Shown here: piece by piece, positions 8,967 to 60,298 of the stretch
Layout of the letters: each line of letters begins with the position of its first letter
How positions within the stretch are numbered: position 1 is the stretch's first letter
NCBI RefSeq assembly: GCF_026210795.1
Contig: NC_089430.1
Coordinates: 1,860,001-1,924,000 of the forward strand
Direction of reading: 5' to 3'
Source: Rhizophagus irregularis
Lineage: Eukaryota
DNA length: 64,000 nt
Made by a program: the position numbers and the translations under genes
The notes under the pieces: model-generated
The model's input: only the letters and a program-made list of their open reading frames with translations
Told to the model about the DNA's origin: nothing
The model's database searches: none

Positions 8967-11900
8967 TTACAAATTGTGATTAGTGATGATATAAAGATCA
9001 CAAAATTCTTTGAGCTGGTTAGCTCCCGAAGTTACAGCAAATTTTTTCATATTTTCCACATTCGACCTGGTAATCTTTCGCGAGAGCCTCAATTCCATCA
9101 TCTCTTTTAAATGGGCCAACTCATAACTATTTGCTAATTTAAGTAGATCTTCATAAAGTACAAATTTTGAAGTATCGGAATCAATCTTTAAACTTTTAAT
9201 TGCCACATCGATGTCCTGGCCATACAAGTATCGTAATAAGATTCTCATCGAGTTAGGTTTAATGTCATTCACAGTATTCTTAATCAGACCTGGATTTGCC
9301 GAAGAAAATTCTTTTTGAAAAAATTCAGAGCTTGCCGCAAGCATATATCGATTTGCTTTAATTTCTTCTTCATCCACAATAAAAATGATATCATTTAAGG
9401 AGGTTTCCTGATCAAACAAAAGATCAAATACGGCTTTTCCAATAATAATGGACTGATTGTGTAGACAAACGTTTATTTTATAATCTGGTCGTTTTACTTC
9501 CTTGACACCTGCACTTTTGAGCATGGTGGGATATTTTTGAAGGGCCAAACAAATATATCTATCCTCATCTATTTGACTATTCAAAATCAAATCTTTTATA
9601 GAGACCCAGTTATCGTCATCAAATGGGTCTTGATTTTTGTTGAAATTAAGGAATAATCTTTCACGTTCATGAATATGTTCTGTTAAGTCAATATCATTTT
9701 CCTTACATTCATCTTCGAGCCATTTATAAACTTCATAGACGTTGTTTTTAAAAACTCCAGCCCAATTTGTCTTCCATTCATCATCAACCCGTAAATTCAT
9801 ATATAAGTAACGAAGATGTTCGATTACAATAGTTACTTCCGGTTTACCAAGTGTTGGATATTTTTGAAGCACGTGTTTAGGCGGTACAACATCTTCTGCA
9901 ATCAAAGACATTTGACTCCACGCAACTTCCTTATACTTGGAAAGTACTATGTGATCGAAACAATCCAAAGTATTAGTACGAACATGATTCAAATTATAAG
10001 GTTTACCCAGATCTTTGGAAATTGGGATAAATTGAAATCTTTCCATTCCTTCTTCAAATTTAAGAGTGTCAATATTTTTATAGAAATAATCGATTAAAGC
10101 AAAACCTCGATAACGTGTGTCAGATGGAGGGTTCACTTTTTTCCCCAACTTCTCAATATACTTAGCGCAAATAATGAATGTTTCTTGATTAACCTTATAT
10201 TTAAATCCAATACTTGACAATTCATTTAAATATTTTAGATCATTATGAAGAAACATGCCCATGTTTCCACTAAAAATGGTCTTAAAAACACTATTATTAA
10301 TATCATATAGTTGATCAACTTTCTTTAATTTCTTATTATATGTGGGGAAACAGGGCTTATCCTTCAAATCTTTAACAACTTTACCATAATCGAGTATGCT
10401 GTTAAGAAAATTAACATAATGATAATCATATTCATTAGGGAATTCAACGTCTTCGAAAGTATACGAATAAACGTCTCGTTCTTGGACATCAAGTTTGATA
10501 AGACATTTTCGAACATCATCTGCTGCATACAAATAAATTTTGGAATCCTTTTTTGTTCGATAATGTTGAAATTTATTTGGCAAAATATACCCGCATGAAA
10601 TTGGTTTCAAAGCTGGTTTCGAATCTGGTTGTATCGGATCCGAGAGTGTTGGCCAAATAGGCAATGAGCGGATGAGTAATTTTAGATCCGGGTTAGATTT
10701 TATGTCTGCACAAAGTAAAAAAAAAAATAAAATAAAATAAAAGAATAAGCAATTCAACCATTTGTTTAGTCGCAAGGATGATAATATTTGTATACTTAAA
10801 ATTCTATGTAGCTACCTAATTCATCCAAATTATTTCGTAATAAGTCTCGAAATCCTAAAGTCTGTTCACGTGGTAAGAACTTGAAGAGAACGTCTACGCG
10901 GTCATTCTTGTCAGGTAAGCCTTCATTAATCAACTGGAAGATATCATCATTTTTTAATACAAGTTGAAGTACTTTAAATCCATATTCGACTATGCATTTT
11001 GGATAATTTCCAGTGACGGACGGAAAGGGCCAGTATTTTGAGATGGGATGATCTTTTAGATCTATTTCTTTATTTTTATGTAATTTGATAATTTCTTCGA
11101 GTAGTTTGCAATAAAGTTCCGGTAAGAAATCGAGCAAAATATACCTATTCCAACCAAGTTTCTGATGATCTATATCCGGTAGATCATCTTTATCTATTAG
11201 TAATTTTCCACGATCTGAACCTTGGGCCCAAGTTCCGTTAAGATGAACTGGCAAATTTATTGCATCCGGCAGTGAGAAAAAAGAATACATTCTACCCTTA
11301 AAGTTATCCTGAATATTCTCTGAGCTTTTAAGTATTGTAGCGATGCCTCCTAATACGCGTAAACGATATTTTCTCGCATATTCTTGTAGTTTTGAATCCT
11401 CAGGATTTTGTTGAGCACCATTAGTAATAATCCAATGTTCTTCTTGTTTATTGCCTGAATTGTCAGTTAATTCGATTTTTAACTGAAAAGTTTTAATTAT
11501 ACCATTGTTAATATACTTTCTTCGATTTCGAATATCTTCATCCAAATCGGTTATAACCGCTTTCCAAAGAGAAGTTATTTGAAATGGAGATGTAGTTTCA
11601 TTTATAAAGGAAGTTTCAATTGTCTCAATGTTTCGAAGGAATAAAAATTGAGAGGAAACAATTGATTTAATATCGGTGAGTAACTTGCGGACTTTCTTAG
11701 TAGTAAAAATGCTGTCAGTTATATCACTTGGTTCTTTCCTAAGTGGTAATCGAAAGAGAGTCCCTTCAAAAGTAGATCGAAAATCCATCCCTTCAATACC
11801 TTCAAAAGGGATCAATTGATCCTTTTTAGAGAAACCACCAATGCCATTATTGGGAATATGACCTCTAATACCACGTTGGGATAAATATTTCTCTTGAGGA

Positions 11901-12460
11901 TCCAAAAACGCAAAAGAATCACCACTTATAAAACTTGGAACATCAGTAAAATGATAGCACGAATTAAAGCCCAATCCATGCTTCCCAATTTTTGTATCAT
12001 CGCCTTGCTTTCCTCCAACGCGTATTTGCATAAGTGATTCAAAATCAGTTTCTTTAAATTTCGCATTATTAAATATCAAAATGGCTGGGCCTTGCCAAGC
12101 CTTCATTTCATTATAAAATAGAGAATCTGTAGGATGTGAACGGGCGTCAACTATCACGTGATATCGAGTAGCTCCAGCGTCATCGGCTATTTTTTTTTTT
12201 TTAGGTAAAATAAGTAACATATTTTTTTTTACAAAAGTTACAAAAGCGAAATAAAATTAATTTTTTTTAACTCCTTACCATTTTGAAGAAATTCTTTAAA
12301 TATACTCTCGAAAGGATAATCCTGGTAAAATATGGGGTTTAATAATGTTATTAAAAAGAATTATAATATATATTTTAAATCATAGATGAAAACCTACTTT
12401 TATGATATTACGTATGGACGAAATAAGTGTCTCATTTTGACCGTAAGATTGAAATGACAT
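8967..12460 (-). CDS. Sacsin-like (Hsp90/GHKL-type ATPase) N-terminal domain plus C-terminal BTB/POZ domain protein, copy A, ~1071 aa
   Basis: Exons 12460-12398, 12321-12279, 12186-10816 and 10705-8967 total 3216 nt in frame. Motifs: EFLQNADDAGA, KIGKHGLGFNSCYHFTDVPSFISG, GTLFRLPLR, LPVHLNG. BTB region: DIIFIVDEEEIKANRYMLAASSEFF...LLRYLYG...LLKLANSYELAHLKE. Confidence 0.92.
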
Positions 12461-21388: not shown

Positions 21389-24300
21389 TTACAAATTATT
21401 ATTAGCGATGATATAAAGATCACAGAATTCTTTGAGCTGGTTGGCTCCCGAATTTTCAGCAAATTGTTTCATATTTTCCACATTCGACCTGGTAATCGTT
21501 CGCGAGAGCCTCAATTCCATCACTTCTTTTAAATGGACTAACTCATAACTATTTGCTAATTTAGTTAGATCTTTATAAAGTGCAAATTTTGAATTATCAT
21601 CATCAATACCTAAACTTTTAATTGCGACATCGATGTCCTGACCATACAGGTATCGTAATAAGATTCGCATCGAGTTAGGTCGAATGTCATTAATAGTGAT
21701 CTCAATCGGACCCGGATCTGCCGAATAAAATTCTTGTCGAAAAAATCCAGAGCTTGCCACAAGCATATATCGACTTGCTTTAATTTCTTCTTCATTTACA
21801 ATAAAAATGATGTCATTTAAGGAGGATTCATGATCAAATAAAAGATCAAATACGGCTTTTCCAATAATAATGGACTGATTGTGTAGACGGACGTTTATTT
21901 TATAATCTGGTCGTTTTACTTCCTTGACACCTGCACTTTTGAGCATGTTTGGATATTTTTGAAGACTCAAACAAATATATCTATCCTCATCCTTTTCACT
22001 ATTCAAAATCAAATCTTTTACAGAGACCCAGTTGTCGTCATCAAATGGGTCTTGATCTTTATTGAAATTAAGGAATAATCTTTCATGTTCATAAATTTGT
22101 TCTGACAAGTCAATATCATTTGTCTTGCATTCACCTTCGAGCCATTTATAAACTTCATAGACGTTGTTTTTAAAAACGCCAGCCCAATCGCTTTTCCATT
22201 CATCATCAACCCGTATGTGTGTATACAAGAAACGAAGATGTTCGATTACAGTAGTTGCTTCCGGTTTACCAAGTGATGGATACTTTTGAAGTACGTGTTT
22301 AGGCGGTACAACATCTTCTGCAATCAAAGACATTTGACTCCACGCAACTTCTTTATATTTGGAAAGAACTATGTGATCGAAACAATCTAAAGTATTAGTA
22401 CGAACATAATTCAAATTATAAGGTTTACCCAGATCTTTAGAAATTGGAACAAATCTAAATCTTTCCATTCCTTCTTCAAATTTAAGAGTGTCAATATTCT
22501 TATAGAAATAGTCGATTAAGGCAAAACCTCGATAACGTATGTCGGATGGAGGATTCACCTTTTTTTCCAACGTTTCGATATATTTAGCGCAACCAATGAA
22601 TGTTTTTTGATTAACCTTATTTTTAAATCCAATATTTGACAATGCATCTGAATATTTTATATCATTATGAAGATACATGCCCATGTTTTCACCAAAAATG
22701 ACCTTGTAAACACTATTTCGAATATCATACAGTTGATCAATTTTCTTTAATTTCTTATTATATGTGGGAAAACAAGGCTTATCTTTTAAATCTCTAACAA
22801 CATTACTATAATGAAGTATGTCGTTTAGAAAACGAACATATTGATAATCATATTCACTAGGGAATTCAACGTCTTCGAAAGTATACGAATAAACGTCTCG
22901 TTTTTGGACACCAAGTTTGATAAGACAATTTCGAACATTATCCCCAGAAGCATTCAAATAAATTTTAGAATCCTTTTTTGTTCGATAATGTTGAAAATTA
23001 CTTGGCAAGATGTACCCGCATGAAATTGGTTTCAAATCTGCTGGTAGTATCGAATCTGAGAGTGTCGGCCAAATAGGCAATGAGCGGAGGAGTAATTTTA
23101 GATCCGGATTAGATGTTATGTCTACGCAAATTTAAAAAAAAAATAAAAGAATAAGCAATTCAACCATTTGTTTAGTTGCAAAGATGATAATATTTGTACA
23201 CTTAAAACTCTAAGTAGCTACCTAATCCATCCAAATTATTTCGTAATAAGCCTTGAAATCCTAAAGTCTGTCCACGTGGTAAGAACTTGAAGAGAACGTC
23301 TGCGCGGTCATTCTCGTCAGGTAAGCCTTCATTAATCAACTGGAAAATATCATCATTTTTTAATATAAGTTGGAGTACTCTAAATCCATATTCGACTACG
23401 TATCTTGGATAATTTCCAGCGGCGGACGGAAACGGCCAGTACTTTGAGATGGGATGATCTTTTAGATCTATTTCTTTATTTTTATGTAATTTGATAATTT
23501 CTTCGAGTAGTTTGCAATAAAGTTCCGGTAAGAAATCAAGCAAAATATACCTATTCCAACCAAGTTTCTGATGATCTAAATCCGGCAGATCATCTTTTTC
23601 GATTAGTAATTTTCCACGATCTGAGCCCTGAGCCCAAGTACCGTTAAGATGAACTGGCAAATATATTGCATCAGGTAATGAGAAAAAAGAATACATTCTA
23701 CCCTTAAAGCAGTTATCCTCTGAGCTTTTAAGTATTGTAGCGATACCCCCTAATACGCGTAAACGATATTTTCTCGCATATTCTTTTAGTTTTGAATCCT
23801 CAGGATTTTGTTGAGCACCATTAGTAATAATCCAATGCTCTTCCTGTTTATTTTCTGAATTATCAGCTAATTCGATCTTTATCTGAAAAGTATTAATTAC
23901 ACCATTGTTAACATACTTTCTTTTATTTTTTGTATCTTCATTCAAATCTGTTATAATCGCTCTCCAAAGAGAAGTTATTTGGAATGGAGCTGTATCTTCA
24001 TTTATGAAAGACGTTTCAATTATTTCAATATTTCGAAGGAATATAAATTGAGAGGATGCAATTGATTTAATATTGGTGAGTAATTCGAGAACCTTGTCGG
24101 TAGTAAAAATGCTGTCAGAGATATCACTTGATTCTTTCCTGAGTGGTAATCGAAAGAGAGTCCCTTCAAAAGTAGATCGAAAATCTATTCCTTCAATGCC
24201 TTCAAAGGGAACTAATTGGTCCTTATTAGAGAACCCATCAATGCCATTATTGGGAATAAGACCCCTAATACCACGTTGGGACAAATATTTCTCTTGAGGA

Positions 24301-24841
24301 TCCAAAAACGCAAAAGAATCACCACTTATAAAACTTGGAACATCAGTAAAATGATAACACGAATTAAAGCCTATTCCATGTTTCCCGATTTTTGTATCAT
24401 CACCTTGTTTTCCCCCAACGCGTATCTGCATAAGCGATTCAAAATCAGTTTCTTTAAATTTCGCATTATTAAATATCAAAATGGCTGGGCCTTGCCAAGC
24501 CTTCATTTCATCATAAAATAGAGAGTCTGTAGGGTGTGAACGAGCGTCAACTATAACATGATATCGAGTAGCTCCAGCATCATCAGCTATTTTTTTTTTT
24601 AAAAAAAAAGGATATTTCAATTAAAATTTTAACGAAAGTGAAATAAATTGAATTTTAACTCCCTACCATTTTGAAGAAATTCTTTAAATATACTTTCGAA
24701 AGGATAATCCTGGTAAAATATTAATTTAATGAAACCATTAAAAAAAAATGCACTTTTAAAGCATAAATGAAAATCTACCTTTATGATATTACGAATGGAC
24801 GAAATAAGTGTTTCGTTTTGACCGTAAGATTGAAATGACAT
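21389..24841 (-). CDS. Sacsin-like ATPase plus BTB/POZ domain protein, copy B
   Basis: Same four-exon structure as copy A (MSFQSYGQNETLISSIRNIIK | DYPFESIFKEFLQN | ADDAGATRY...). ORFs 23202-24620 and 21389-23080 are open. Confidence 0.92.
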
Positions 24842-47300: not shown

Positions 47301-50300
47301 TGCCAGTCCATGTTCATCATATGTGTTACTATTGGTATGCATTGCGATTAGAGTAGAGCTTTCCAGCTCGTTTGCAAAAATTCTGTCAATAATAGAATAC
47401 AGATGATGTAATTCAATTGACGTTCTTGATTTGAAGAAATCGATTTCATGATAAAATTCTCTGTAAACTAGATTTTATAATAAAATTATATCAAAATTAT
47501 TAATTGGTTTAAAACATGAAAAATATTTTATTTTTCGCTATTTAATACTATTATTTAGAATAATTCAATTTTAAATAATGCCAGCCGGCAGTAAACCAGT
47601 TTAATTCAATATTTCTTTTTTTCATATAAATTTAAACGGTTATTTTGGCTATTTTGAATACAGTAACCTTGCAATGTCCTAATGGCTTACTAGTTGCACC
47701 ACACATAAGAAATTTCATTTGATACATGTTTTTTTCTTCCAAACGAAAGATTTTATCTGTTATAGTTTGTAAGTTCATAACAAAAGTCATGATTTTAACA
47801 ATCTTTGCAAGAAAATAGATAATAGTCTACATGAATTTCAGCTATTCTTCTTTAATCACAAGTATAATAAATGGAGTCTATAACTGAAATAACAAGAAAA
47901 AAAAGTCGTTAGTATGGCTGGTACCAGGTGGAAGAAAAATCAACCACCATAGCGTAAAAAAAAAGTCTCCAGAAAGGTGATGGTATCATACTCAAGTGGA
48001 CACCCTAGAACTTGCACAATAAAGATTTTTTTTTGTTTTTTTTTTATTTTTGTTAATTTTTTTTTCTTTTTTTCATTTCTTTTTCTTTATTTTTTCATTT
48101 TCATTTTTTTTCACCTTTTTTCTTTTTTTTTTATATTTTTTTTTTCTATTATTCTGTATTTTTTTTCATTTTCATTTTCATTTTCATTTTTTTTTTTTTT
48201 ACCTTTTTTTCTTTTTTATATATATTTTTTTCTTTTATTTTTTGTTACTTTTTTTTAACCCCTACTGTAATGGTCCTTTGGGATACCACTGACAATATGA
48301 CACCATGCATACAAGCCAGGTGCATAGGCTAACCCTCCTCCAGGAAAGCCAGTTTCTCATATATACTCCCTTTCAACTTTTTTTATCTGTAAGCCTGTAT
48401 CATTAAAACTATGCAAGCAGGGAGCGCATGCTTACCTTAATATTGGTCTACCATAAATCTTAATTTGTAAATACAATCCATACTGTATTACATTCTTTCA
48501 TCTTCAGTAGAAAATTCAAGATTATATTCTTTATTTTCAACCTTTGTAACATTGACCTTAAATGTTGAGTTTGAGTATTGTTTATTGTTATTTCATTACC
48601 AACCAAGAAAGAATTGTCACAAGTATTGCCTAAAATTAAAAAAATAAAAAAAATTTTATCTTGAATATATTTTTCCATAAAATAATAAAATGTATCTTTT
48701 TAATATTGAAAAAACAAAAGAAGACCTAAAGAACCCATCTGGTAAAAGATATTCTTGGTTTATTAGTTTCATCTGACAAGTTACTTATTGAAGAGAAAGT
48801 TCGTAAAAAGGAAAATTTCATATTGAATATATTTTTCCATAAAGTACGAGTTTAATTTCTCTAAGTTCGTGAGTTTGTGAGTTTGTTATATGAATATATT
48901 TATCTGAAGTTTTTGATAAAAAAATGAAAAATGAAGTATTGAGAAATTTGAGGGAGTTTGGGTATATTTATACTTTTTTAAAAAACCTTTTACACAGTAG
49001 ATGATATGTGGAACTTCGATGTACAAAATTTACAAGATCAAGATTTGTTTATATATTTTACTATATTGTTTCATAAAAAAAATAATGACTCATAAAATCT
49101 TGAATCTTGATAAAAAAATCTGATCTTGATAAAAAATATCTCAATTTTTTTTAAAAAAAATGTAAAAAGAAGTTTAATATTGAAAATCCTCATGAGTCAT
49201 TACTAATATTTATAGGGGTATATCGATCGTGAGTCACATTTATCACATCGATCGATTCCTAATTTTCTATGTATTAAATCTGGAAACTAGTAATATGAAT
49301 CCTTTTAACTTCATTGCGGAATCTTAAAATATTATATCATAAAATTATCATGTAAAAAAAAGGAAATAATCACAAATAATAAAAATTCAACACTAATTCA
49401 ACACGAAATACGCTTGATACTTTAAGAATATTAAGTATGAACTCTAAATACGGGTTCTTATTTATGACGTTTCAGTACTTATCAAATCTCCCTGTTAAGC
49501 TTTCTATGCTTTCCTTGTTAGAAAGATCTATAACCTCGCATGCTAAGAAAGCAACACTCTGTAGCGTATACGCTCTTGGCGCTCCTTATAAGGATGCCGC
49601 AGAAATAATTTTTTTTTTTAAAAAAAAAAGTGATTTTTTAATTTTATAGTACTTTTGTTTTTGTTACAATTTTTAAAAAATTAACAATTAGAGTTAAATA
49701 ATAATTTACATTTGAATTAATTTTCACAATTTCGCAATAAACTTCTACTCTCTTCTTCATTTTCACTTATCAACACTTTAAAATTTCGAAAATTATTTTC
49801 CTTTAACTTTTTAAACTCACTTAAAAACCTTATAAGTTTTCTTTCATAATGTCGTTCTATAATATGAACGGTAATAAAAAAAAATTGTTCAATAACCTTT
49901 GATTCAATTTTAATATCATGCTACGCTACTCCATCTATTTATTTTTACGGTTATTGATGCAGGAATTACTATCTCTGTTCCAATATTTTAAGTAAATTTT
50001 TCTTTCTCTGAATAATATTCTACATGTTTCGCTGTTTCTCAAGTATTTCTATAAATTCTTCGATAAAGAGCAATATAATCTAAAAGTTCATCTATGAAAA
50101 CTAAACATAATTTAATTTCATTATCAAATCAAAATTAAAGTGCAACATATAAATCTCACCCAAGTAATAACTTATCAAGGTTACCTTCAAATTTGAGAAT
50201 CGAAGAAGAATTTTCTTCAAAAGGTCACAAATCATTTTTAATTAAAAGGAAATATTACATTAATGCACTCGGATATCCTTAGCGACTATCAAATTTGATT

Positions 50301-50813: not shown

Positions 50814-51902
50814 ATGAACTCTCCACGAAGCACCCAAAAAATAACTGATAAAGTTGAACCAAAAAATGAATTTCTCGCACATGGAAATATTAAGGATTAC
50901 TATAATTCACGGTCCAATGAATGCAAGATATATGCCTTCTCAATGGACTATGCAGAAAAATTAAATTCCAATCCAACTTCTATAATCTGGGAACAACCTA
51001 CTCCGCATGGATTGGCCTCAGCAATCATCAATGCGTATACCCTTCATCAACACCTTCGATTCTCACCAGATGATGTTTGGTTAACAGTTGCACAGGGTGT
51101 CAGTAATCACATTTGGAGAAACGCCTACCGTTTTCGTCATTTGTTTGTTGACCATAAAGGTAAAAAAGAAATCTACCTGGACGCTCGTGATATTATAGAT
51201 CAAGTTGGTGGAAATTTTGTCGGTGATTGGCCACAAGCAATTACTCGACTTTCGGATACAGTTGATGAAAAAGTTAAAAAAGTTGCCTTAAAAGAAATTT
51301 TCGAATGTGATTTTTCTACTTCAACAAATACATCTATTATAGTCAGTCGAATTACCTTGTTAAATGCGATGAAAGAATTTTTTATCCTTAGATTGCGTGG
51401 TGGATGTGGTATTCCAAAAGTTACCCTTGATGGCACCTTAGAAGATTGGTTACACCTTCAAGAAAAAGTTGCAAATCTTCGTAATTTAGGATTGGAACTT
51501 GATTTCTGGCTCGATAGGTTGGAACCGGTCATTTCTCAATTCATTACCACTTATAAAGGAAACGTTGATGAAAACTTTTGGAATATGGTTGTTTTTCAAG
51601 CTCCTATTATTGGACCCAGTGGTTACAGCAGCGAAGAACTTGGTACACGTCCTCGTTGGGATGGATGGATAAGTGCATTATTTCCATACACTCAATTAGG
51701 ATGCTATCCTTCTGATATACCTTCTGGATTGGTTAATGTTCCATTCACATTGAGCATTAATAAAAATAACTTCCAATTAAGATTTGTTGGAGGGTTTCTA
51801 GGTTGTAGACAAGATAAGATTGATGAAGAATATGTTGTTTCGCCTGTTATTGGTTGGTATATTGATGATAAAAAACTTTCTCCAAGGGATTTAAGGGATT
51901 GA
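50814..51902 (+). CDS. DUF4419-family protein, intronless, 362 aa
   Basis: Recognised from the motifs AIINAYTLHQHLRFSPDDVWLTVAQG, CDFSTST, CGIPKVTLDGTLEDW, GWISALFPY and VVSPVIGW. Confidence 0.85.
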   Translation: MNSPRSTQKITDKVEPKNEFLAHGNIKDYYNSRSNECKIYAFSMDYAEKLNSNPTSIIWEQPTPHGLASAIINAYTLHQHLRFSPDDVWLTVAQGVSNHIWRNAYRFRHLFVDHKGKKEIYLDARDIIDQVGGNFVGDWPQAITRLSDTVDEKVKKVALKEIFECDFSTSTNTSIIVSRITLLNAMKEFFILRLRGGCGIPKVTLDGTLEDWLHLQEKVANLRNLGLELDFWLDRLEPVISQFITTYKGNVDENFWNMVVFQAPIIGPSGYSSEELGTRPRWDGWISALFPYTQLGCYPSDIPSGLVNVPFTLSINKNNFQLRFVGGFLGCRQDKIDEEYVVSPVIGWYIDDKKLSPRDLRD

Positions 51903-52171: not shown

Positions 52172-52550
52172 GAAGAGGGGTCACGACTCGTTTATCCGTA
52201 ACCCGTTTACCCTGTAAAAAAAGTCTATCCGTTTTTTATATTCCAACTTTTTTTCCGTAAAAGGCTCATATTTCCAGAATTAATAACCTTATATCACGGA
52301 ATTTTTTGAATTATTTTCATTTTTTTGTGAATGGAACCGTGAAAGGCACATTCTTACGGATTATTTACAAAAAAATAACGGATAAAATTTTTTATAGGGT
52401 TAATCGGATACAATCCGGGTATATTAGGGGAATACAGTAACAAATGGGTAAAAATGGCTGGCCGTGTTTGTATCCGTTTTTTATGTTGATACAAATATAC
52501 CCGAGTAAAGCCGGGTTATCTACCCGGGTATGCCCCGGGTAATTACTCTA
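52172..52550. mobile_element. hAT-like relic with 8-bp TSD, hosting a nested MITE
   Basis: Direct repeat ATCAAAAT at 52164-52171 and 52551-52558. Right end ...CCGGGTAATTACTCTA; subterminal ACCCG/CGGGT repeats; left TIR degenerate. Confidence 0.65.
52210..52399. mobile_element. MITE family B (CCCT[G/A]TAAAAAA termini), nested copy
   Basis: Termini CCCTGTAAAAAAAGTCTATCCG / CGGATAAAATTTTTTATAGGG. Related in inverted orientation to 57415-57604. Confidence 0.8.
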
Positions 52551-53067
52551 ATCAAAATTAAAGCTTTCCAGAATCAAAGGTTTATATAAATTACATTTAG
52601 GAACTTTACTAGAAAAATGGACCCTGAAACAATGAAACATGTATCATTAGTGATAGTCATATAATTTTTTAATTTTATTAACATTGACCAAAAAAAAATT
52701 AAATTTTTCGGTCAGAATTAAGTAATGTGTTGTCAGTCACTAATAATGAGCTTTAGCAACGCTTATTATATAATACTTTATTTTTTAAAGTTTAACAATG
52801 TCAAAGTCTTAATAAATTCAATAAATATCTAATACTCAGATATATAAACGGGTATAAATGGGTATTTCCCGTTATGGAGTTGTTATGATCCGGATCCAGA
52901 AATTCTGCACAGTCAGTTATTTAGCCAGAGAAGGTTAGTCTTGAGTGCAATTGTCACCGTGAGTCATAACTTGTAACTGCATTAATAACGTTAAATTCCG
53001 AATGATGCCGCAATTGAATTAATCAATATTTAAAGACAAAGCTTTCTTACATTTTTTTTCTTGAATA

Positions 53068-53273
53068 ATGGATTATATAAGTAAGAGTCACAGAGTCATT
53101 GATTTATCTGCTAGAATTTATTCTATTAATTAACTTCTAACCTTTTTTTATTTATTTAAGCTGATGCGTGCTCGTTTATGAATTGTGGCAAAGAAACGTC
53201 ATGCATTGTCTGCGGGAGTAAGCGAGGCGGTGGGGCATGCCGTGAACATTGTACATGCGGTAATTGTAAGTAA
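53068..53273 (+). CDS. Cys-rich micro-peptide 1, 41 aa: MDYITDACSFMNCGKETSCIVCGSKRGGGACREHCTCGNCK
   Basis: Exons 53068-53080 and 53161-53273 total 126 nt. GTAAGA...TTTAAG intron. Homologous to three downstream copies. Confidence 0.8.
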
Positions 53274-53700
53274 AATCTCTTTTTTATTTTCGTAAATCAT
53301 AATGACTCAATGACTCTGTGAAAAAAGAAAATGAAAAGTTATATTTCTATCATTTATATCCATATTTACAATAAACAAATTTTTTATTTTCAATTTATAA
53401 ATTTTTATAAAACGTAATACGTTATTATAAACTGAAAATTTTATACTTGATAAAAAATATTTCCATTTGCAAAGATGTATATAAAATTGATGAGAGGATT
53501 ATTTTGAGCTAAACTAAAAATAATTTCCTGATGTCAAAATGGTCTTTATACTATTTGTTTTATTACCTCCTATGTTACTTAGAATTTCGCCATGGTCAGA
53601 ATGAAAGTTTAGGTAAAATACTTATGATTTTTAGTTTAATTTATAAATAAGTAACTTGCCTTATTGTATCGTAGTTATTTTAAAAGTCAAGATACTTTAA

Positions 53701-54092
53701 CCATTTATCGCCGTTTTCGAATTGGTGTGATCGTCGATCAATTTCTATAATTGACTCAAAATAAAATCAATATCATTTGATCTGTGTAATGCTAAGCCAC
53801 CATCGTATAATATTCACCTTTTATTTTTGTTATAGCTTATAAACCGATTCCTAAAGACCTGATTGATTCCTATAGATTCCAAAGTTTCTTAATAACTCCA
53901 ACCAAATAAAAGATAATACTTTTTCATTTTATTTTTATAATTTCTAACTATTTTTTCGTTTCTATCTATTTTTTTCATTAGTGTAAATAAGCTGTATTTG
54001 TATTTCTTGTTTTTGGTTGCTTTCGGTATTCGCAGTTTTATAAATAAAATATATCACCTGATCACAGTAATTCGAAAATGGCGATAAAAAGT
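53701..54092. mobile_element. piggyBac-like MITE flanked by TTAA
   Basis: TTAA|CCATTTATCGCCGTTTTCGAATTGGTGTGATC ... GATCACAGTAATTCGAAAATGGCGATAAAAAGT|TTAA. Confidence 0.7.
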
Positions 54093-54194
54093 TTAAATGA
54101 AACATCACATATTGTAAATATTACTTGGCTAGACCATAAAGAAAAATTCAAGAAAATTCTAATGGCGCTATAGTATTGATATTAATATTTCATA

Positions 54195-54610
54195 TAACAT
54201 CTGGAATAGGTTGCTTGCGACATTTTAGGATATGATGATGGAAAGTTTGTCAGGGATTTGCCGCAAGCAATTACTCGATTTTCAGATTCTATCAACAAAC
54301 GAATTAAAAAAGTAAATGTTCGAATGTTTGATTTATCTACTTTAACAAATGCATCTATTATTCTATTACTACCAGTCGAATTATCTTGTTAGATACGATG
54401 AAAGAATATTTTACGTGGTGGCTAATCGCTGTGGTAAATTGATAGTATCTTGGAAGATTGATTACACCTTTAAGAAAAGTTGTAAAAAAAAATTTCATGT
54501 TTAGATAGGCTAGAACCGATCATTGCTCAATTCTTATCACTTCTTAATTAATCAAATTTATTCTTATACGAAGTTTCTTTTTTTTTTCCCTTACGAGTTT
54601 ACAATTATAT
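54195..54610 (+). pseudogene. Decayed paralogue of the DUF4419 gene
   Basis: GCAAGCAATTACTCGATTTTCAGAT, GAAGATTGATTACACCTTTAAGAAAAGTTG and GATAGGCTAGAACCGATCATTGCTCAATTC match 51230-51550. The 3' flank matches 51910-51955. Multiple deletions and stops. Confidence 0.85.
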
Positions 54611-55313
54611 GTTTAAATTAGAAAATTCGTAAACATACAGTATTTATAAGATAACATTTTTCCGCTCAATTTTTTTTTTTACGCGTACGCGAGAACTTAC
54701 TGTGTTTGTATAATAGTTTGTAATAAAGTTAGAAAATAGAAATTGTTATTTTGCTGACAAAGTTAAAACTTAGCAATGGAAAAAATTGTTTTTTCCTCCT
54801 TATTATTAAATAAACGTTTTTATTAAATACAAATGGATAATAAAAACTTAGTAACAATCACTTTATATGATCATGTTCTGTTATTAACATTAACTATACT
54901 TAAAACTACAAATAATATATAATCTTCTACGATATCATATAACTACTAAGTATCTTTAAAGATTGAAGATCATAATTAATTTATATTTGTCAATGTCGTT
55001 AGAATTATTTGTATAATCCTTTTCTCCTTTCTATTTAAACTTTTAAACTTACTATATTTTCATATATTGGTAAATCTCTTACATCCATAAATTCCAAATT
55101 TCTATCTTATCGTCATATCGTGATCGAAAAAAAATTTTTAATATTGACATTAACAAATATTTATAATGCGTGATGCAGGGGCACATTGACAAATAAATTG
55201 TCACAGTGAGTCATAAATAGTAATACGTTAAATTCCGAAGATTTGTTACATTGAGTTCAGGTTATTTTTTTTTATTTAAAGGCAAGCTTTTTCCTACACT
55301 TTTTTAAAAAATC

Positions 55314-55496
55314 ATGTCTTATAAAATAAGTAAGGTCACAGAGTCATTAGTCTTCTACTAACATGTATTCCGTTATTAACTAACTTTTAACTTTTTTTAT
55401 TTAAGCTGGTGTGTGCTTGGTTTTTGATTGTGAACTTGATATAAAATGCAGTAAATGTAATGCAATAGACATTGTGGCTGTGGTCAATGTAAGTAA
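55314..55496 (+). pseudogene. Cys-rich micro-peptide 2, frameshifted: MSYKITGVCLVFDCELDIKCSKC/CNRHCGCGQCK
   Basis: Exons 55314-55329 and 55406-55496 total 107 nt, 4 nt shorter than copies 3 and 4. TGT AA TGC replaces TGT AAG ATG TGC. Confidence 0.75.
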
Positions 55497-56669
55497 AATT
55501 TTTTTTATTCTCATAAATAATGACTCAATGACTCTGTGACTCTGTGACAAAAATAAGCAAATTGTAAATTTTTATAAGTAAGTTATGCAATTTCTTTAAT
55601 TATATCAAATATTATACAATAAACATAATATATTCATCATGTTCAACCAATTTACAAAATTACGAGTTCAATATATATGATGTATTATTGTAGACTGAAA
55701 ACGGTATGTTTTATGTTCTCTCTTCGTCATAAATATCTTTGTAGAGTTATTTAGAAAAAAATTAAATGAACATATAAAATTTATTCTTTAAACTGTCATT
55801 CATCATATTGGCAAACCACCCTCTAATAATAGAAAAAAAGAAGGTAACCTATAACTAATGAACGAGATCATAGCTATAAATCTAAAATCAGGTGGTAACG
55901 AAAAATATTAACGGGTAAAGTAGAAGACAGTTCCTATAAAATAAAACCCACGTATTTATCTTTCACTCCGGAAGGAATGCTACACGTAAATACTGTAAAG
56001 TGTAGAAAGATGGGCGGCCAAAAGATTTGCATAAGCAAAAAATATACAAATACCTCGTGATCCAAGCGTTATCAACGTCCGGGTAAAGAAATTGCTAAAA
56101 AGGAATTGTGAATTTGTTTTCTAATCACATGACGTATCACCGATGCATTACTTTTGATCGTTGACTTAAAAAAACTAATTTTTAAAGATTAAAAATATGC
56201 CTTCATAGAAAAGTTAAATAATTAAAATAACCTAAAATCATTATAGTATAAACTTAATTTATTGATAATTTCATTAATTGAAAATTTTTTATTTATGCAT
56301 ATTTGCATATAAAATCAGTTAATTTTTGCATTAATATTGTATGAATTTTCTAAATATTATATTTATATGAAGTAATACACTATATTTTAGTAATAATTAA
56401 AAATTGTAAATATATAAGTAAATTTTTCAATCGCCGAATTTATATTAGATTAATCTAAGCTAAATCGGGTCGGTCGAGATAATTAATAAAGATCGGCATA
56501 ATTAACAGATAAATTGATACCGGGTCGACTCGCATCTAAAGGTACACTGACAAAATATTTGTCACATTGAGTCATAAGTAGTAATTGAATTGATACGTTA
56601 AATTCCGAAGGATCAACAGATTTTTTCTTTTATTTAAGACAAACTTTTGCCTCGCTTTTTTTAATAAAA

Positions 56670-56854
56670 ATGTCTTATGAAAGAAGTAAGGGTCACAGAG
56701 TCATTAGTCTTCTACTAAAATGTATTCCGTTAACTAACTTTTAACTTTTTTTATTTAAGCTGGTATATGCTCGCGTTTAGAATGTACTTTTAGTGTATCA
56801 TGCACTAATTGTAGGTCGTGCAATAGTCATTGTACCTGTGGTCTATGTAAGTGA
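56670..56854 (+). CDS. Cys-rich micro-peptide 3, 36 aa: MSYERTGICSRLECTFSVSCTNCRSCNSHCTCGLCK
   Basis: Exons 56670-56685 and 56760-56854 total 111 nt. GTAAGG...CTAAC...TTTAAG intron; TGA stop. Confidence 0.82.
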
Positions 56855-57414
56855 AATTTTTTTATTCTCATAAATAATGACTCAATGACTCTGACAAAAA
56901 TAAACATAATACAAATTCTATCGAGTAAGTTATAATACTCTTATAAATCCTATATTTTATATATTTCTATCATTATAAACACTATACCTATATATATAAT
57001 AAACAAAAATTTTTTTACATGTATATTCATCACATTCTGATATTTTCAATAAATTTATAAAATTATAAAGTTCAAAACACGTTATGCAAAACTATTATGC
57101 ATTATTAGAAAGATTTTACTCTCTGGTAAAATGTATTTCAAATCCCTACTTTGCAAGATAAGGATCGTTACAGCAGAGAACATAATACATATGTCTAGAG
57201 TTATTTAGAAAAAATCAAATGAAACTATTCTTTTAAACTGCCATTCACCATATTGGCAAACCCACCCTCTAATAACAGAAAAAAGGAAACCTATAACTAA
57301 TGAACGGGATCATAGCTATAAATCTAAAATAGGGTGGTAACGAAAAATATTAACGGGCAAAGTAGAAGACAGTCTCTATAAAATAAAATCCCGTATTTAT
57401 CTTCACTCTGGAAG

Positions 57415-57604
57415 CCCTATAAAAAATTTTTATCCGAATATTTCCATTATTTTTCCGTGTCTTCCGTAAAAAATCCGTGAAAATGAGGATATCCGTGTTA
57501 GCGAGATGAAAATTTCCATGATTTAAGGCTATAAATTCCATGAAAATGATACATTCACGGAAAAAACATGGAAAGATAAAACACGGATCAGATTTTTTAC
57601 AGGG
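57415..57604. mobile_element. MITE family B, second copy
   Basis: Termini CCCTATAAAAAATTTTTATCCG / CGGATCAGATTTTTTACAGGG. Empty site TCACTCCGGAAGGAATG in the preceding tandem unit (~55963). Confidence 0.88.
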
Positions 57605-58331
57605 TAAGGAGTGTTACATGTAAATACTGTAAGGTGTAGAATGATGGCGGCCAAAAGATTTCATCAGCAAAAAAATATACAAATACCTCGTGATCCAAGC
57701 GTTATCAACGTCTGGGGTAAAGAAATTGCTAAAAATAGAATAATCACTCATTTTAAGATTAAAAATATGCCTTCATAACAAAGTTAAATAATTAAAATAA
57801 CCTAAAATCATTATAGTATAAACTTAATTTATTGCTAATTTCACTAATTGAAAATTTTTTATTTATGCAAATAAAACCAGTTAATTTTGCATTAATATTT
57901 TATGAATTTTCTAAATATTATGTTTATTTATATTGTCTTTCAGAAGTAATACACTATTAATCTTTTATATTTTAGTAATAATTAAAAATTTCCAATATAA
58001 AAGTATAATCTTTATCAGTTTTATATATTCCAAATAAAATTTTGGGAAATTAGAATTTATATTCGATTAATCCAAGCTAAATCGGGCCGGTTGGGAGAAA
58101 TTAATTAATAAAGATCGGCATAATTTTTTGATTTACAATATAGAAATTGATACCGGGTCGACTCGGGCAAGAAGAGCATCTATAACCAGAATAAACCAGA
58201 TGCGGGTGCACTGACAAAATAATTGTCACATTGAGTCATAAGTAGGAATTGAATTGATACGCTAAATTCCGAAGGATTGACCCATTTTTTTTTATTTAAG
58301 ATAAACTTTTGCTTGCTTTTTTTTAATAAAA

Positions 58332-58517
58332 ATGTCTTATAAAATAAGTAAGGGTCATAGAGTCATTAGTCTTCTACTAAAATGTATTCTGTTAAACTAA
58401 CTTTTAACTTTTTTTATTTAAGCTGATGCGTGCTTGTATTTTGGATGTGACCATAATGTAAAATGCAGTAATTGTAAGATGTGCAATAAACATTGTTCCT
58501 GTGGTTTATGTAAGTAA
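58332..58517 (+). CDS. Cys-rich micro-peptide 4, 36 aa: MSYKITDACLYFGCDHNVKCSNCKMCNKHCSCGLCK
   Basis: Exons 58332-58347 and 58423-58517 total 111 nt. GTAAGG...CTAAC...TTTAAG intron; TAA stop. Confidence 0.82.
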
Positions 58518-60298
58518 AATTTTTTTATTCTCATAAATAATGACTCAATGACTCTGACAAAAATAAACATAATACAAATTCTGTCGAGTAAGTTATAATA
58601 CTCTTATAAATCCTATATTTTATATTTCTATAAACACTATACCCATATATACAATAAACATAAATTTTTTTACTATATATTCATCACGTTCTGGTATTTT
58701 CAATAAATTTATAAAATTATAAAGTTCAAAACATGTAATGCAAGCTATTATGCATTATTAGAAAAATGTAAAATGTACATTAATTTGTATACCCCAATAC
58801 CCTTCTTTGCCTATGAGGTTATTAAAAGTTGGTCTAGGGCTTATAGAAATACCCATTGGCATTGTTAAGGATAACAACAGTAGAGCAGCTGTTTCATACA
58901 AATAGCCCATATAGTGTTCTGTAAGACCCAGGACTACATATAGATTACGTTATGAAGTTTATGGATCGTCCTCTGGTGCAGTGACGCTTGGAATATCACT
59001 ACATACATTGCGATACCCACTTATCTGCGTATTCCTTAAAGCTACTTTGTACACCAATTTAAATTCCAAAGCCTTTATTTCTTCAAATATATAGGACTCT
59101 TATTTTTCAGTCAAGAACTTTCGAATGTATGCCATCCTTAATGATCCTTTGAGAATGCGTAAAAGATACATTATTAACTCTAGAGTTTACTGAATAATTC
59201 TTTATGAAATACAATCGATAATTCAAGGTTATCTAGTTTAACACCGTGTTCACATATTAGTTAAAAATGCTTGCCTCTATATTACGCTCTTATTTTCTTA
59301 CAATGTTATTCATTTTTTTTACACATTTTTTGGGTTTAAAAGGAAAAATTTGTTTAATTCCTATATTTATCGCTTCAACTTTTTTTTTGATAATGGCGTC
59401 ATAATTTCCATACTTTCTTTATTAAGCATGTTATCCTTAGAACTAAAGGCATAATTTACGGTTTATGATGATTAACAATAAAATTGTAATATACATACGT
59501 GCATGTTCATGTGATTTTCAAATTTACCAGTAAGTGTTTTTGCGTTTCCAGATATTTTAATTTCTGGACAAAAATGTCCGGAAAATATCCAGGTAATATA
59601 CGGAATGAATTATATATCGAAAATGAATGTCCGGAAAACATCACGCACCACAATAAAATTTGTGTAACATCATCCTATTCGAAGAAAATTTAAGCGAAAG
59701 TTTCATACTTTTATTTATGTAAACCTTAAGAAAGACCTTACGAAAAACCTTATGTATGTAGTTTATATTCTTGCTTAATTTATAAATATTGATTAAACTT
59801 ATTTTTTTTTTTACTTTAGAAGTCGGAATGGTAATTAGAAAAATAAAAGTCGTACATATGCTAAAGTAATTACTAAAACCGAAAGTGGCCCACCCTTGTT
59901 TAAAAAAAAAGGCTAAATATAGAAACATTGTCGCTACATTTTTTTTTTGTAGTCTAAATTGATTTACTATTATCTTCCTCTTTCAGACATGTCACGTGAT
60001 TCTGCATACGTCCTGATCGTTTCAGTTATTAGGGAGTAGGGGCTACGGTAAAAGAAAGGTTTCATGTATTTATTTACTTGAATATAATGTATTTTGTTAA
60101 TTATGAAATTTCTTTTTTAAGAAATATTTAACAAGACGGGAGTTACAACAAATTAATAAGATTTTCTGAGAAATTTACTATTAAAAGGTACAATAGGTAC
60201 AATCAAAAAGAAATAAATAAGCCTTTTTTTTCTTTTTTTTCTTTAAAAAAAAACAAAAAAAAAAATTTGAACTTAGTCTCTCAATTACTTTCATAAAA

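What the first reader, a model, noticed from the sequence alone, without database searches (positions are those of the whole stretch)
53068..58517. Hidden tandem family of four spliced 8-Cys/1-His micro-peptide genes (36-41 aa) missed by the ORF track
Seen: four copies each have a 13-16 nt ATG exon, a ~75-80 nt phase-1 GT-AG intron and a second exon encoding C-x4-C-x5-C-x2-C-x2(8)-C-x2-H-C-x-C-G-x-C-K*. Cys codons alternate TGC/TGT, the stop alternates TAA/TGA, and copy 1 has an in-frame 6-codon insertion, which is what selection on a protein would produce. There is no signal peptide. Established: small cytosolic Cys-rich peptides with CxC/CxxC motifs are typical of metallothioneins, whereas defensin-like peptides carry signal peptides. 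Inference: a compact metal-binding (metallothionein- or Zn-finger-like) or RiPP-precursor family that I cannot assign to a named family. Aromatic and hydrophobic residues (F, Y, L, I, V) are atypical of classical metallothioneins.
Basis: partly seen in the sequence, partly recalled or inferred. Interest (0 to 1): 0.9.

Follow-up and report, generated by a model that had tools for sequence, protein, structure and literature searches.

The report
Fungal exon that splices to itself
In a mycorrhizal fungus, four short genes each hold one cysteine-rich exon whose RNA is mostly spliced end-to-start onto itself, which likely builds long repeat messages (or small circles) that would encode chains of a predicted metal-binding module from a single genomic copy.

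Summary
The four loci are real. Three keep the Cys/His pattern; copy 2 is frameshifted. The 'Cys-Lys-stop' tail is a GTAAGT splice donor. In four RNA or RNA-like runs from three studies, the listed joint at these exons links the exon's end to its own start at the AG/GT sites. For copy 1 this is 33 of 34 and 48 of 67 laid reads in two polyA runs. None of the proposed ATG-exon junctions reached the listing threshold. Two DNA-like runs show a single flat-depth copy of exon 1. The intact exons are 105, 87 and 87 nt, phase 1-1 and stop-free when repeated (7 Cys + His per turn). They are flanked by complementary 10-15 nt elements that are more conserved than the exon itself. Reads exceed one turn of the exon. 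Best reading (0.45): relay trans-splicing (exon repetition) makes polyadenylated repeat mRNAs for a cytosolic metal-binding polymer. Rival: unusually small circRNAs. Short reads cannot separate the two; translation and metal binding are untested. No homologue or family was found. The closest precedent is Schistosoma SmPoMuc exon repetition.

The parts
53068..53080 (+). Copy 1 ATG-bearing coding start (13 nt), phase-1 donor follows
   Evidence: Sequence; RNA depth 0.4-0.7 in X22, 0 in X23
53081..53160 (+). Copy 1 intron 1 with pairing element 53088-53102, CTAAC-type branch point and acceptor
   Evidence: essentially no RNA depth inside the intron
53161..53265 (+). Copy 1 self-splicing exon, 105 nt, 35 codons, 7 Cys + 1 His, stop-free when repeated
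   Evidence: Joint 53265->53161 in X21 23, X22 48, X23 33, X24 9 reads, X2 contig depth 456; absent in DNA-like X17, X1
53266..53321 (+). Copy 1 GTAAGT donor (reads Cys-Lys-stop if unspliced) and downstream pairing element 53299-53321
   Evidence: 15-nt perfect complement to the intron element
55314..55329 (+). Copy 2 ATG-bearing coding start
55330..55405 (+). Copy 2 intron 1 with pairing element 55335-55348
55406..55488 (+). Copy 2 exon, 83 nt, frameshifted by a 4-nt deletion (probable pseudogene) but still self-spliced
   Evidence: Joint 55488->55406 in X21 7 reads, X2 depth 28
55489..55548 (+). Copy 2 donor and expanded downstream element
56542..56638 (+). Copy 3 5'-leader intron holding a second GAGTCAT element (56565-56575) that can also pair with the downstream element
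   Evidence: Spliced in one X2 contig, depth 4.9; complementarity
56670..56685 (+). Copy 3 ATG-bearing coding start
56686..56759 (+). Copy 3 intron 1 with pairing element 56692-56706
56760..56846 (+). Copy 3 self-splicing exon, 87 nt, 29 codons, 7 Cys + 1 His, no in-frame ATG
   Evidence: Joint 56846->56760 in X21 2, X22 14 reads, X2 depth 270
56847..56893 (+). Copy 3 donor and downstream element
58332..58347 (+). Copy 4 ATG-bearing coding start
58348..58422 (+). Copy 4 intron 1 with pairing element 58354-58368
58423..58509 (+). Copy 4 self-splicing exon, 87 nt, 29 codons, 7 Cys + 2 His
   Evidence: Joint 58509->58423 in X21 12, X22 7 reads, X2 depth 176; also receives 53265->58423 in 3 X22 reads
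58510..58556 (+). Copy 4 donor and downstream element

Best explanation
Each locus holds one Cys-rich exon whose RNA is spliced from its own donor back to its own acceptor, most likely between neighbouring nascent transcripts (relay trans-splicing, 'exon repetition'), which would give polyadenylated mRNAs of ATG exon + about 10-40 exon copies + one tail and a predicted cytosolic metal-binding polymer. Shown: the joint at the AG/GT sites, its dominance, one genomic copy of exon 1, templates longer than one turn, an unbroken frame in three copies, and selection on Cys. Inferred: the downstream element of one transcript pairs with the intron element of the next. This would mask the intron-1 donor (the element starts 6-8 nt behind it) and join a downstream donor to an upstream branch point and acceptor as one split intron. 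An exon of 87-105 nt is too short to close easily on itself, so the reaction would go in trans. The chain would start with the one transcript whose intron 1 is spliced normally (supplying the ATG) and end when a donor is left unspliced, where the frame reads Cys-Lys-stop. Each repeat carries 7 Cys + His, eight ligands in four pairs, which would suit two Zn(II) sites or a Cu(I) cluster per repeat. The fast-changing loops between the Cys suggest that paralogues differ in metal or partner specificity.
For: Self-joint in all four copies, with 0 letters of microhomology at the junction and both ends on canonical splice sites. Copy 1: 33 of 34 laid reads in X23 and 48 of 67 in X22; depth 32-56 on the exon against 0-4.5 beside it. 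DNA-like runs X17 and X1 cover the locus in one contig at flat depth (136; 18.8) with no such joint. The shorter side of the joint reaches 69-75 nt where one nicked turn allows 41-52, so templates hold at least 1.4-1.7 turns; X23 has 17 first and 17 second mates, all inside the exon. Three of the five RNA or RNA-like runs laid are labelled polyA, and the exons have no A-run over 4. A 3' tail contiguous with the exon exists (X2 contig 53236-53612, depth 46.6, exon:tail 9.8), and one X22 read fits the ATG-exon junction. Copy 3's exon has no in-frame ATG, so its frame needs the ATG exon. Intron-downstream duplexes -25 to -30 kcal/mol, z -4.2 to -5.3, reached by 0-1 of 500 shuffles. The 20-nt downstream element is identical in all four copies; intron 1 is 96-99% and the downstream stretch 98-100% identical among copies 2-4, the exon only 71-80%. 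The terminal Lys is AAG in 4 of 4 copies where AAG is 72 of 384 Lys codons in 12 window ORFs, as a donor requires. Short exons circularise poorly: over 80-fold loss after a 90-nt deletion in S. pombe mrps16 (PMC4479058 section 9); only 300 nt or more efficient in fly cells (PMC4617980). Engineered upstream trans-splicing gives head-to-tail protein multimers, more so with short inserts (PMC6381186).
Against: Linear-only chains must be long: with 86 inside reads, at most 2 exit reads and 1 entry read, a simulation rejects 5 repeats and disfavours 10 (P 0.024 with a short tail, about 0 with a long one) and fits 20-80. That needs over 95% efficiency per step, while the engineered system gave mainly dimers up to tetramers. 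X23 has no read on either flank. Circle junctions do turn up in polyA libraries, and rolling-circle reverse transcription makes repeats from circles (PMC3946582 passages). Pairing in cis is the usual outcome for flanking repeats. The one cross-copy joint (53265->58423, 3 reads, 2 starts) runs forward, and the two exons share their first 12 nt, so read-through splicing or template switching could explain it. No protein evidence: no repeat protein among 243-2000 aa candidates (a weak search using half of one exon). The DNA control covered copy 1 only, and X17 and X1 are judged DNA from their coverage, not from their records. No compensatory base changes are visible in four paralogues. Aromatic residues and varied loops are unlike classical metallothioneins.
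Confidence: 0.45

Rival explanations
1. The exon is back-spliced in cis into very small circles (83-105 nt, or 2-4-unit circles after one trans step) that are not translated. The protein is the rare single-exon 36-41 aa peptide, and circle formation is a conserved off-switch or sink for it.
For: Inverted repeats flanking an exon are the classic back-splicing signal (PMC4201285, PMC4617980 passages). Almost no flank reads. Frameshifted copy 2 still self-splices, so the joint needs no coding capacity. The ATG exon and the Cys-Lys-stop end are conserved. Concatenated circles were seen in minigenes.
Against: The exons are far below the sizes that circularised efficiently. The reads come from polyA-labelled libraries, and nearly all exceed one turn (only 5 X22 reads show adapter), so they would need both carry-over and rolling reverse transcription. 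The repeats (10-15 nt perfect) are shorter than the 30-40 nt found sufficient in human cells.
Confidence: 0.3
2. The exon forms circles that are themselves translated round and round (infinite ORF), giving the same Cys-rich polymer without a linear repeat mRNA.
For: Lengths of 105, 87 and 87 nt with no stop in the Cys frame; only 1 of 73 AG..GT pseudo-exons of 80-110 nt in the window is a multiple of 3 and open when circular (narrower donor pattern). Rolling-circle translation is known from synthetic circles of 129-387 nt (PMC4639774 passages) and from a few longer natural circles (PMC11724312).
Against: Copy 3 has no in-frame ATG in the exon. The circles would be shorter than those tested. 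A conserved ATG exon would then be unnecessary. Apparent circle translation has been traced to linear trans-spliced by-products (PMC7544230).
Confidence: 0.12
3. These are ordinary two-exon micro-peptide genes. The GAGTCA/TGACTC motifs are AP-1/Gcn4-like DNA binding sites (motif name recalled), their complementarity is incidental, and the self-joint is a stable by-product.
For: TGAGTCA lies upstream of all four ATGs and TGACTCA downstream; Cys selection fits a monomer equally well.
Against: The by-product would outnumber the normal junction about 48 to 1. The donor sequence and element spacing are invariant while most non-Cys codons change.
Confidence: 0.08
4. The joint is a technical or assembly artefact: reverse-transcriptase template switching, or a collapsed genomic array of identical exons.
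For: Template switching is a main source of false non-colinear joints (PMC4132752 passages). Copies 2-4 had no DNA control. A fifth paralogue elsewhere shows an odd back joint that includes intron sequence.
Against: The joints fall exactly on AG/GT in four diverged copies with no microhomology, in three studies. Two DNA-like runs give one flat-depth contig across copy 1.
Confidence: 0.05

Closest known systems
Schistosoma mansoni SmPoMuc exon repetition (PMC2576457, passages read)
   Same: A short exon is repeated in transcripts beyond its genomic number (25-100 repeats), with 12-13 nt complementary sequences in the flanking introns; multigene family; repeats of one type per transcript.
   Different: SmPoMuc genes already hold up to 20 genomic copies of the exon; here copy 1 is single. 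Their product is a mucin, not a Cys module. Here the self-joint is nearly the only junction seen, and the donor doubles as the last codons before the stop. Animal versus fungus.
Exon repetition in rat carnitine octanoyltransferase (seen as described in PMC2576457; the Rigatti 2004 paper was not held)
   Same: A single genomic exon appears in tandem in mRNA.
   Different: Two copies of an internal exon of an ordinary enzyme gene, not a gene built around the repeat.
Repeat-driven back-spliced circRNAs (ZKSCAN1, Laccase2, S. pombe mrps16; PMC4201285, PMC4617980, PMC4479058)
   Same: Donor-to-upstream-acceptor joint at canonical sites; flanking complementarity (not in mrps16); the circle can exceed the linear form.
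   Different: Exons of 83-105 nt against about 300 nt or more; repeats of 10-15 nt that are not transposon-derived as far as seen; an open frame with Cys selection; abundance in polyA-labelled runs.
Modular fungal metallothioneins CnMT1/CnMT2 and Tremella TmMT (PMC4755600, passages)
   Same: Chains of 7-Cys modules without a signal peptide; TmMT is encoded by exons of 63-105 bp.
   Different: Their modules are hard-wired in DNA and built on CxC pairs with small spacers and (in the first TmMT fragment) no aromatics. Here the spacing is C-x4-C-x5-C-x2-C-x2(8)-C-x2-H-C-x-C with F/Y/L/I/V, and the repetition is made in RNA. No Pfam metallothionein match.
Engineered upstream trans-splicing, pCS2-V5 system (PMC6381186, abstract and first part of discussion)
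   Same: A donor hidden in the last codons joins an upstream acceptor in phase and yields head-to-tail protein multimers; more efficient with short inserts.
   Different: Artificial plasmid, no pairing elements, mostly dimers.

Membership tests
Exon repetition (linear trans-spliced repeats) | Exon-to-same-exon joint at canonical splice sites | tested here: met
   four copies, no microhomology
Exon repetition (linear trans-spliced repeats) | Fewer copies in DNA than in RNA | tested here: met
   Copy 1 only: flat single contig in X17 and X1, no joint; copies 2-4 not tested
Exon repetition (linear trans-spliced repeats) | Repeats lie in a linear, polyadenylated molecule with leader and tail | tested here: inconclusive
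   PolyA-labelled runs and multi-turn reads, but only about 1 entry and 2 exit reads against 86 inside
Exon repetition (linear trans-spliced repeats) | Complementary sequences in flanking introns | tested here: met
   function of the pairing not tested
Exonic circRNA | Back-splice junction | tested here: met
Exonic circRNA | Covalently closed, RNase R-resistant, no polyA tail | not testable with these tools
   No RNase R or long-read run among the 24 listed
Exonic circRNA | Exon long enough for efficient cis closure | tested here: not met
   83-105 nt against thresholds; those come from other organisms, so this lowers the claim but does not exclude it
Metallothionein | Small or modular, about 20-30% Cys, no signal peptide | tested here: met
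   7 Cys per 29-35 codons; in-frame stops upstream of each ATG
Metallothionein | Match to a known metallothionein family, few or no aromatics | tested here: not met
   No Pfam metallothionein hit for 3 of 3 peptides; none among 21 weak PDB hits; Phe or Tyr in all three intact exons
Metallothionein | Binds Zn/Cu/Cd in thiolate clusters and is metal-induced | not testable with these tools
   Needs ESI-MS and expression data
Named zinc fingers (RanBP2-type and others) | Profile match above the curated cut-off | tested here: not met
   Copy 1 only: PF00641 20.8 bits against cut-off 27; copies 3 and 4 none; low-confidence model (pLDDT 65, pTM 0.31) had no Foldseek match
Defensin-like / secreted Cys-rich peptides and Kex2-processed fungal RiPP precursors (features recalled) | Signal peptide or leader before the Cys-rich core | tested here: not met
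   Only 4-5 codons precede the exon, with in-frame stops upstream

The most novel reading that the evidence does not exclude
A gene family built to polymerise itself at the RNA level. One 87-105 nt exon, with a donor hidden in its last codons and short pairing elements on both sides, is chained 10-40 times by relay trans-splicing into mRNAs for variable-length, occasionally mixed, Cys-rich metal-binding polymers. Chain length could be set by transcription rate, and the loops are under diversifying selection. No report of this in a fungus was found, and annotation pipelines would miss it.
Probability: 0.4. Interest if true: 0.95.

Novelty: new variant of a known kind. Interest (0 to 1): 0.86.

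Why it matters
Whether natural exon repetition or circRNA translation ever yields a selected protein product is an open question; most cases are minor by-products or come from plasmids. Here the non-colinear joint is the main RNA form of a small gene family whose frame, stop and flanking pairing elements all look selected for it, so one long-read or RNase R experiment decides the matter. Either outcome is unusual: long trans-spliced repeat mRNAs from a single exon, or abundant circles of 83-105 nt. The roughly 250-nt cassette would also be a compact natural tool for making protein multimers or tiny circles. It points to a hidden class of products, predicted to bind metal, in the main model fungus of arbuscular mycorrhiza.

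Tried and rejected
No whole genome is held for this window, so the family size and the fifth paralogue could not be examined. One search listed no holder on record as RNA; this blank is not used as evidence. Of the 24 listed runs 7 were laid (X21, X22, X23, X24, X2, X17, X1), raw runs at 24-30% of their reads; X21 and X23 are one sample. The metagenome scan gave 176 pattern matches and 1 locus, L001, a chance hit in 47%-GC DNA with no similarity to the window. The profile search of 1.84 billion representatives gave 1 hit, a Rhizophagus irregularis gene model (UniRef100_U9TNI9) holding the first half of copy 1's exon. Word searches with that region found nothing else among shorter, similar or longer proteins. 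Atlas: no usable hit for copy 4; one unnamed 43-aa cluster at 0.75 for copy 1, a lead at best. PDB sequence search: 21 hits, all E 0.3 or worse, mostly the CxxCxxCxxxC stretch of ferredoxin-type proteins; rejected as weak. The AlphaFold model was low-confidence and had no fold match. Rfam: 0 matches at E up to 1 in 52500-59500. Viral contigs: 0 matches to the downstream element. Earlier scan findings: nothing in 4 look-ups. dN/dS: dN exceeds dS in 9 of 10 uncorrected tests, but only 3 reach P under 0.05 (2v3 all codons 0.033, 2v3 non-Cys 0.008, 1v4 non-Cys 0.036; 3v4 non-Cys 0.10), and leaving out the invariant Cys inflates dN, so diversifying selection is suggested, not shown. The Lys codon count used one ORF on the wrong strand; one search is the corrected figure. 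A recalled claim that short exons give linear concatemers in the Laccase2 study was not found in its text and is not used. A downstream third exon for the hidden donor: no such joint was listed.

Full report
Setting. The window is 21-33% GC with kinase, BTB, Sacsin and DUF4419 genes. The only database protein that matched the exon profile is a gene model of Rhizophagus irregularis DAOM 197198 that carries the first half of copy 1's exon letter for letter. The organism is therefore R. irregularis or very close to it.

The observation. Four paralogous units of about 500 nt lie at 52908-53419, 55155-55648, 56512-56992 and 58177-58647, and there are no others in the window. Copies 1, 3 and 4 would give 41, 36 and 36 aa with 8 Cys. 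Copy 2 has a 4-nt deletion that shifts the frame. Cys is unchanged at 7 of 7 exon positions while 15-17 of 21 other residues differ between intact copies, so the exon is under selection as protein. In-frame stops lie upstream of every ATG, so no signal peptide can be added.

What the RNA shows. I laid 7 of the 24 runs listed. The listed joints go from the end of each exon to its own start: 53265->53161 (X21 23, X22 48, X24 9 reads; X2 depth 456), 55488->55406 (7, 0, 0; 28), 56846->56760 (2, 14, 0; 270) and 58509->58423 (12, 7, 0; 176). Each falls between the intron's AG and a GTAAGT that follows the exon, with no shared letters at the joint. The 'Cys-Lys-stop' end is thus a working splice donor. 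At 35-nt resolution on copy 1, X22 has depth 51-56 on the exon, 0.4-0.7 on the ATG exon, about 0 in the intron and 0.4-4.5 in the tail; 48 of 67 laid reads carry the joint. X23 has depth 32-34 on the exon and none elsewhere; 33 of 34 reads carry it. Three X22 reads (two starts) join copy 1's donor to copy 4's acceptor.

Controls. X17 and X1 each cover copy 1 with its intron and flanks in one contig without differences, at flat depth (136 and 18.8), and show no joint. I take them as DNA from this pattern; their records do not say so, and either could be the window's own source. This excludes a collapsed array or a retrocopy for copy 1. Copies 2-4 had no DNA control. Template switching is a known source of false joints (PMC4132752, passages), but it would not pick exact AG/GT ends without microhomology in four diverged copies.

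Anatomy. The exons are 105, 83, 87 and 87 nt and phase 1-1. Repeated, copies 1, 3 and 4 have no stop in the Cys frame and give 7 Cys plus 1-2 His per turn; copy 2 runs into stops. Of 73 AG..GT pseudo-exons of 80-110 nt found in the window with a narrower donor pattern, 16 are multiples of three and 1 is open when circular. An element 6-8 nt behind the intron-1 donor is complementary to an element 28-55 nt behind the hidden donor. Perfect stretches are 15, 14, 10 and 9 nt, and duplex energies of -25 to -30 kcal/mol were reached by 0-1 of 500 shuffles. The 20-nt downstream element is identical in 4 of 4 copies and occurs nowhere else in the window. Among copies 2-4 intron 1 is 96-99% and the downstream stretch 98-100% identical, the exon 71-80%; for copies 3 and 4, 25 of 87 against 3 of 128 positions differ. 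Gene conversion could add to this but would have to skip the exon. The terminal Lys is AAG in all four copies against 72 of 384 in window ORFs. No compensatory changes are visible in four sequences. A second such element sits in a 5'-leader intron that is spliced in one X2 contig.

Circle or chain. Both give the same joint. For chains: three runs are polyA-labelled and the exons have no A-tract. Reads hold at least 1.4-1.7 turns, and both mates stay inside the exon. A tail contiguous with the exon exists at a tenth of its depth in X2. The ATG exon and the stop right after the donor are exactly the start and end a chain needs, and copy 3's exon has no in-frame ATG of its own. Short exons circularised poorly in S. 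pombe (PMC4479058, passages and section 9), fly cells (PMC4617980, passages) and human cells (PMC4201285, passages). For circles: entry and exit reads are so few that linear chains would average 20 or more units in X22 and X23. PolyA libraries do contain circle junctions, and rolling reverse transcription repeats circles (PMC3946582, passages). Trans-spliced and circular forms can share one junction, so both may coexist. I put 0.45 on translated linear chains, 0.30 on untranslated circles with a rare monomer peptide, 0.12 on translated circles, 0.08 on a by-product of ordinary genes and 0.05 on artefact.

What the protein would do (inferred). With no signal peptide the product is cytosolic, where thiols usually bind metal instead of forming disulfides (general knowledge). 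The repeat has eight potential ligands in four pairs, and copy 1's six-residue insertion falls between pairs two and three. This suits two Zn sites per repeat or a Cu cluster. Long fungal metallothioneins are chains of 7-Cys modules with additive Cu binding, in Tremella encoded by exons of 63-105 bp (PMC4755600, passages); the present loci would reach a similar architecture in RNA. The spacing and aromatics differ, and Pfam, PDB, atlas and fold searches gave no family, so it may work like a modular metallothionein or zinc-finger array without being a member. Non-Cys codons tend to dN above dS (3 of 10 tests under 0.05, uncorrected), which would fit binding of changing partners. Neither translation nor metal binding was tested.

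Relation to what is known. The nearest case is SmPoMuc of Schistosoma: 25-100 repeats of an exon in cDNA against at most 20 in DNA, with 12-13 nt complementary intron sequences (PMC2576457, passages). An engineered system makes head-to-tail multimers by the same geometry (PMC6381186, abstract and first part of the discussion), and apparent circRNA translation has been traced to trans-spliced linear RNA (PMC7544230, passages). Infinite-ORF circles are reviewed in PMC11724312 (passages) and were tested synthetically at 129-387 nt (PMC4639774, passages). Searches of the open library (listings and abstract starts) found no report of these loci or of exon repetition in a fungus. Of the three papers joining circRNA and R. 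irregularis, the two I opened analyse the host plant (passages); the third was seen only as a listing. The library lacks most subscription papers and I saw no supplements, where a long-read annotation of this fungus could list such transcripts.

Verdict. The finding is real and more unusual than reported. It is a small gene family whose main RNA is a single Cys-rich exon spliced to itself, with frame, stop and pairing elements that look selected for it. It is a new variant of exon repetition or back-splicing, and one long-read or RNase R experiment would decide which.

Noticed in passing
window 56686-56742 and 55479-55510 (reads from outside the window): A fifth paralogue is transcribed elsewhere. 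Reads match intron 1 with C56702T (16 of 16, 18 of 19, 13 of 13 reads), run on into a different exon (17, 25, 13 loose ends) and return to a copy-2-like exon end. Its intron is retained in polyA reads, and an X2 contig goes back 55510->55344 (depth 23), hinting at a larger cycle or a genomic tandem unit.
   Followed up: no
window 57415-57604 (inverted relative near 52207-52306): High-copy, transcribed, polymorphic repeat inserted between copies 3 and 4, probably a small non-autonomous transposon.
   Followed up: no
window 53610-53832 and 55703-55831: GT-AG introns spliced in the 3' tails of copies 1 and 2; the copy 1 tail reaches at least 54828 in X2.
   Followed up: partly
window 53686-53930: Depth jumps to 770-2150 in DNA-like X17 (background 136): a high-copy repeat, with an inverted pair at 53696-53732 and 54060-54096.
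   Followed up: no
window 53160-53220 and 54070-54540: The public gene model U9TNI9 fuses the first half of copy 1's exon to unrelated frames; it looks like a mis-prediction of this locus.
   Followed up: partly
window 54213-54486 vs 51183-51475: A 70%-identical fragment of the upstream DUF4419 gene lies inside copy 1's 3' tail.
   Followed up: no
window 8967-12256 and 21389-24620: Duplicated Sacsin-domain plus BTB-domain genes, typical of expanded Glomeromycotina families (only the first pair scanned).
   Followed up: partly
window 49086-49236: Three TGAGTCA/TGACTCA motifs cluster here without a Cys exon.
   Followed up: no
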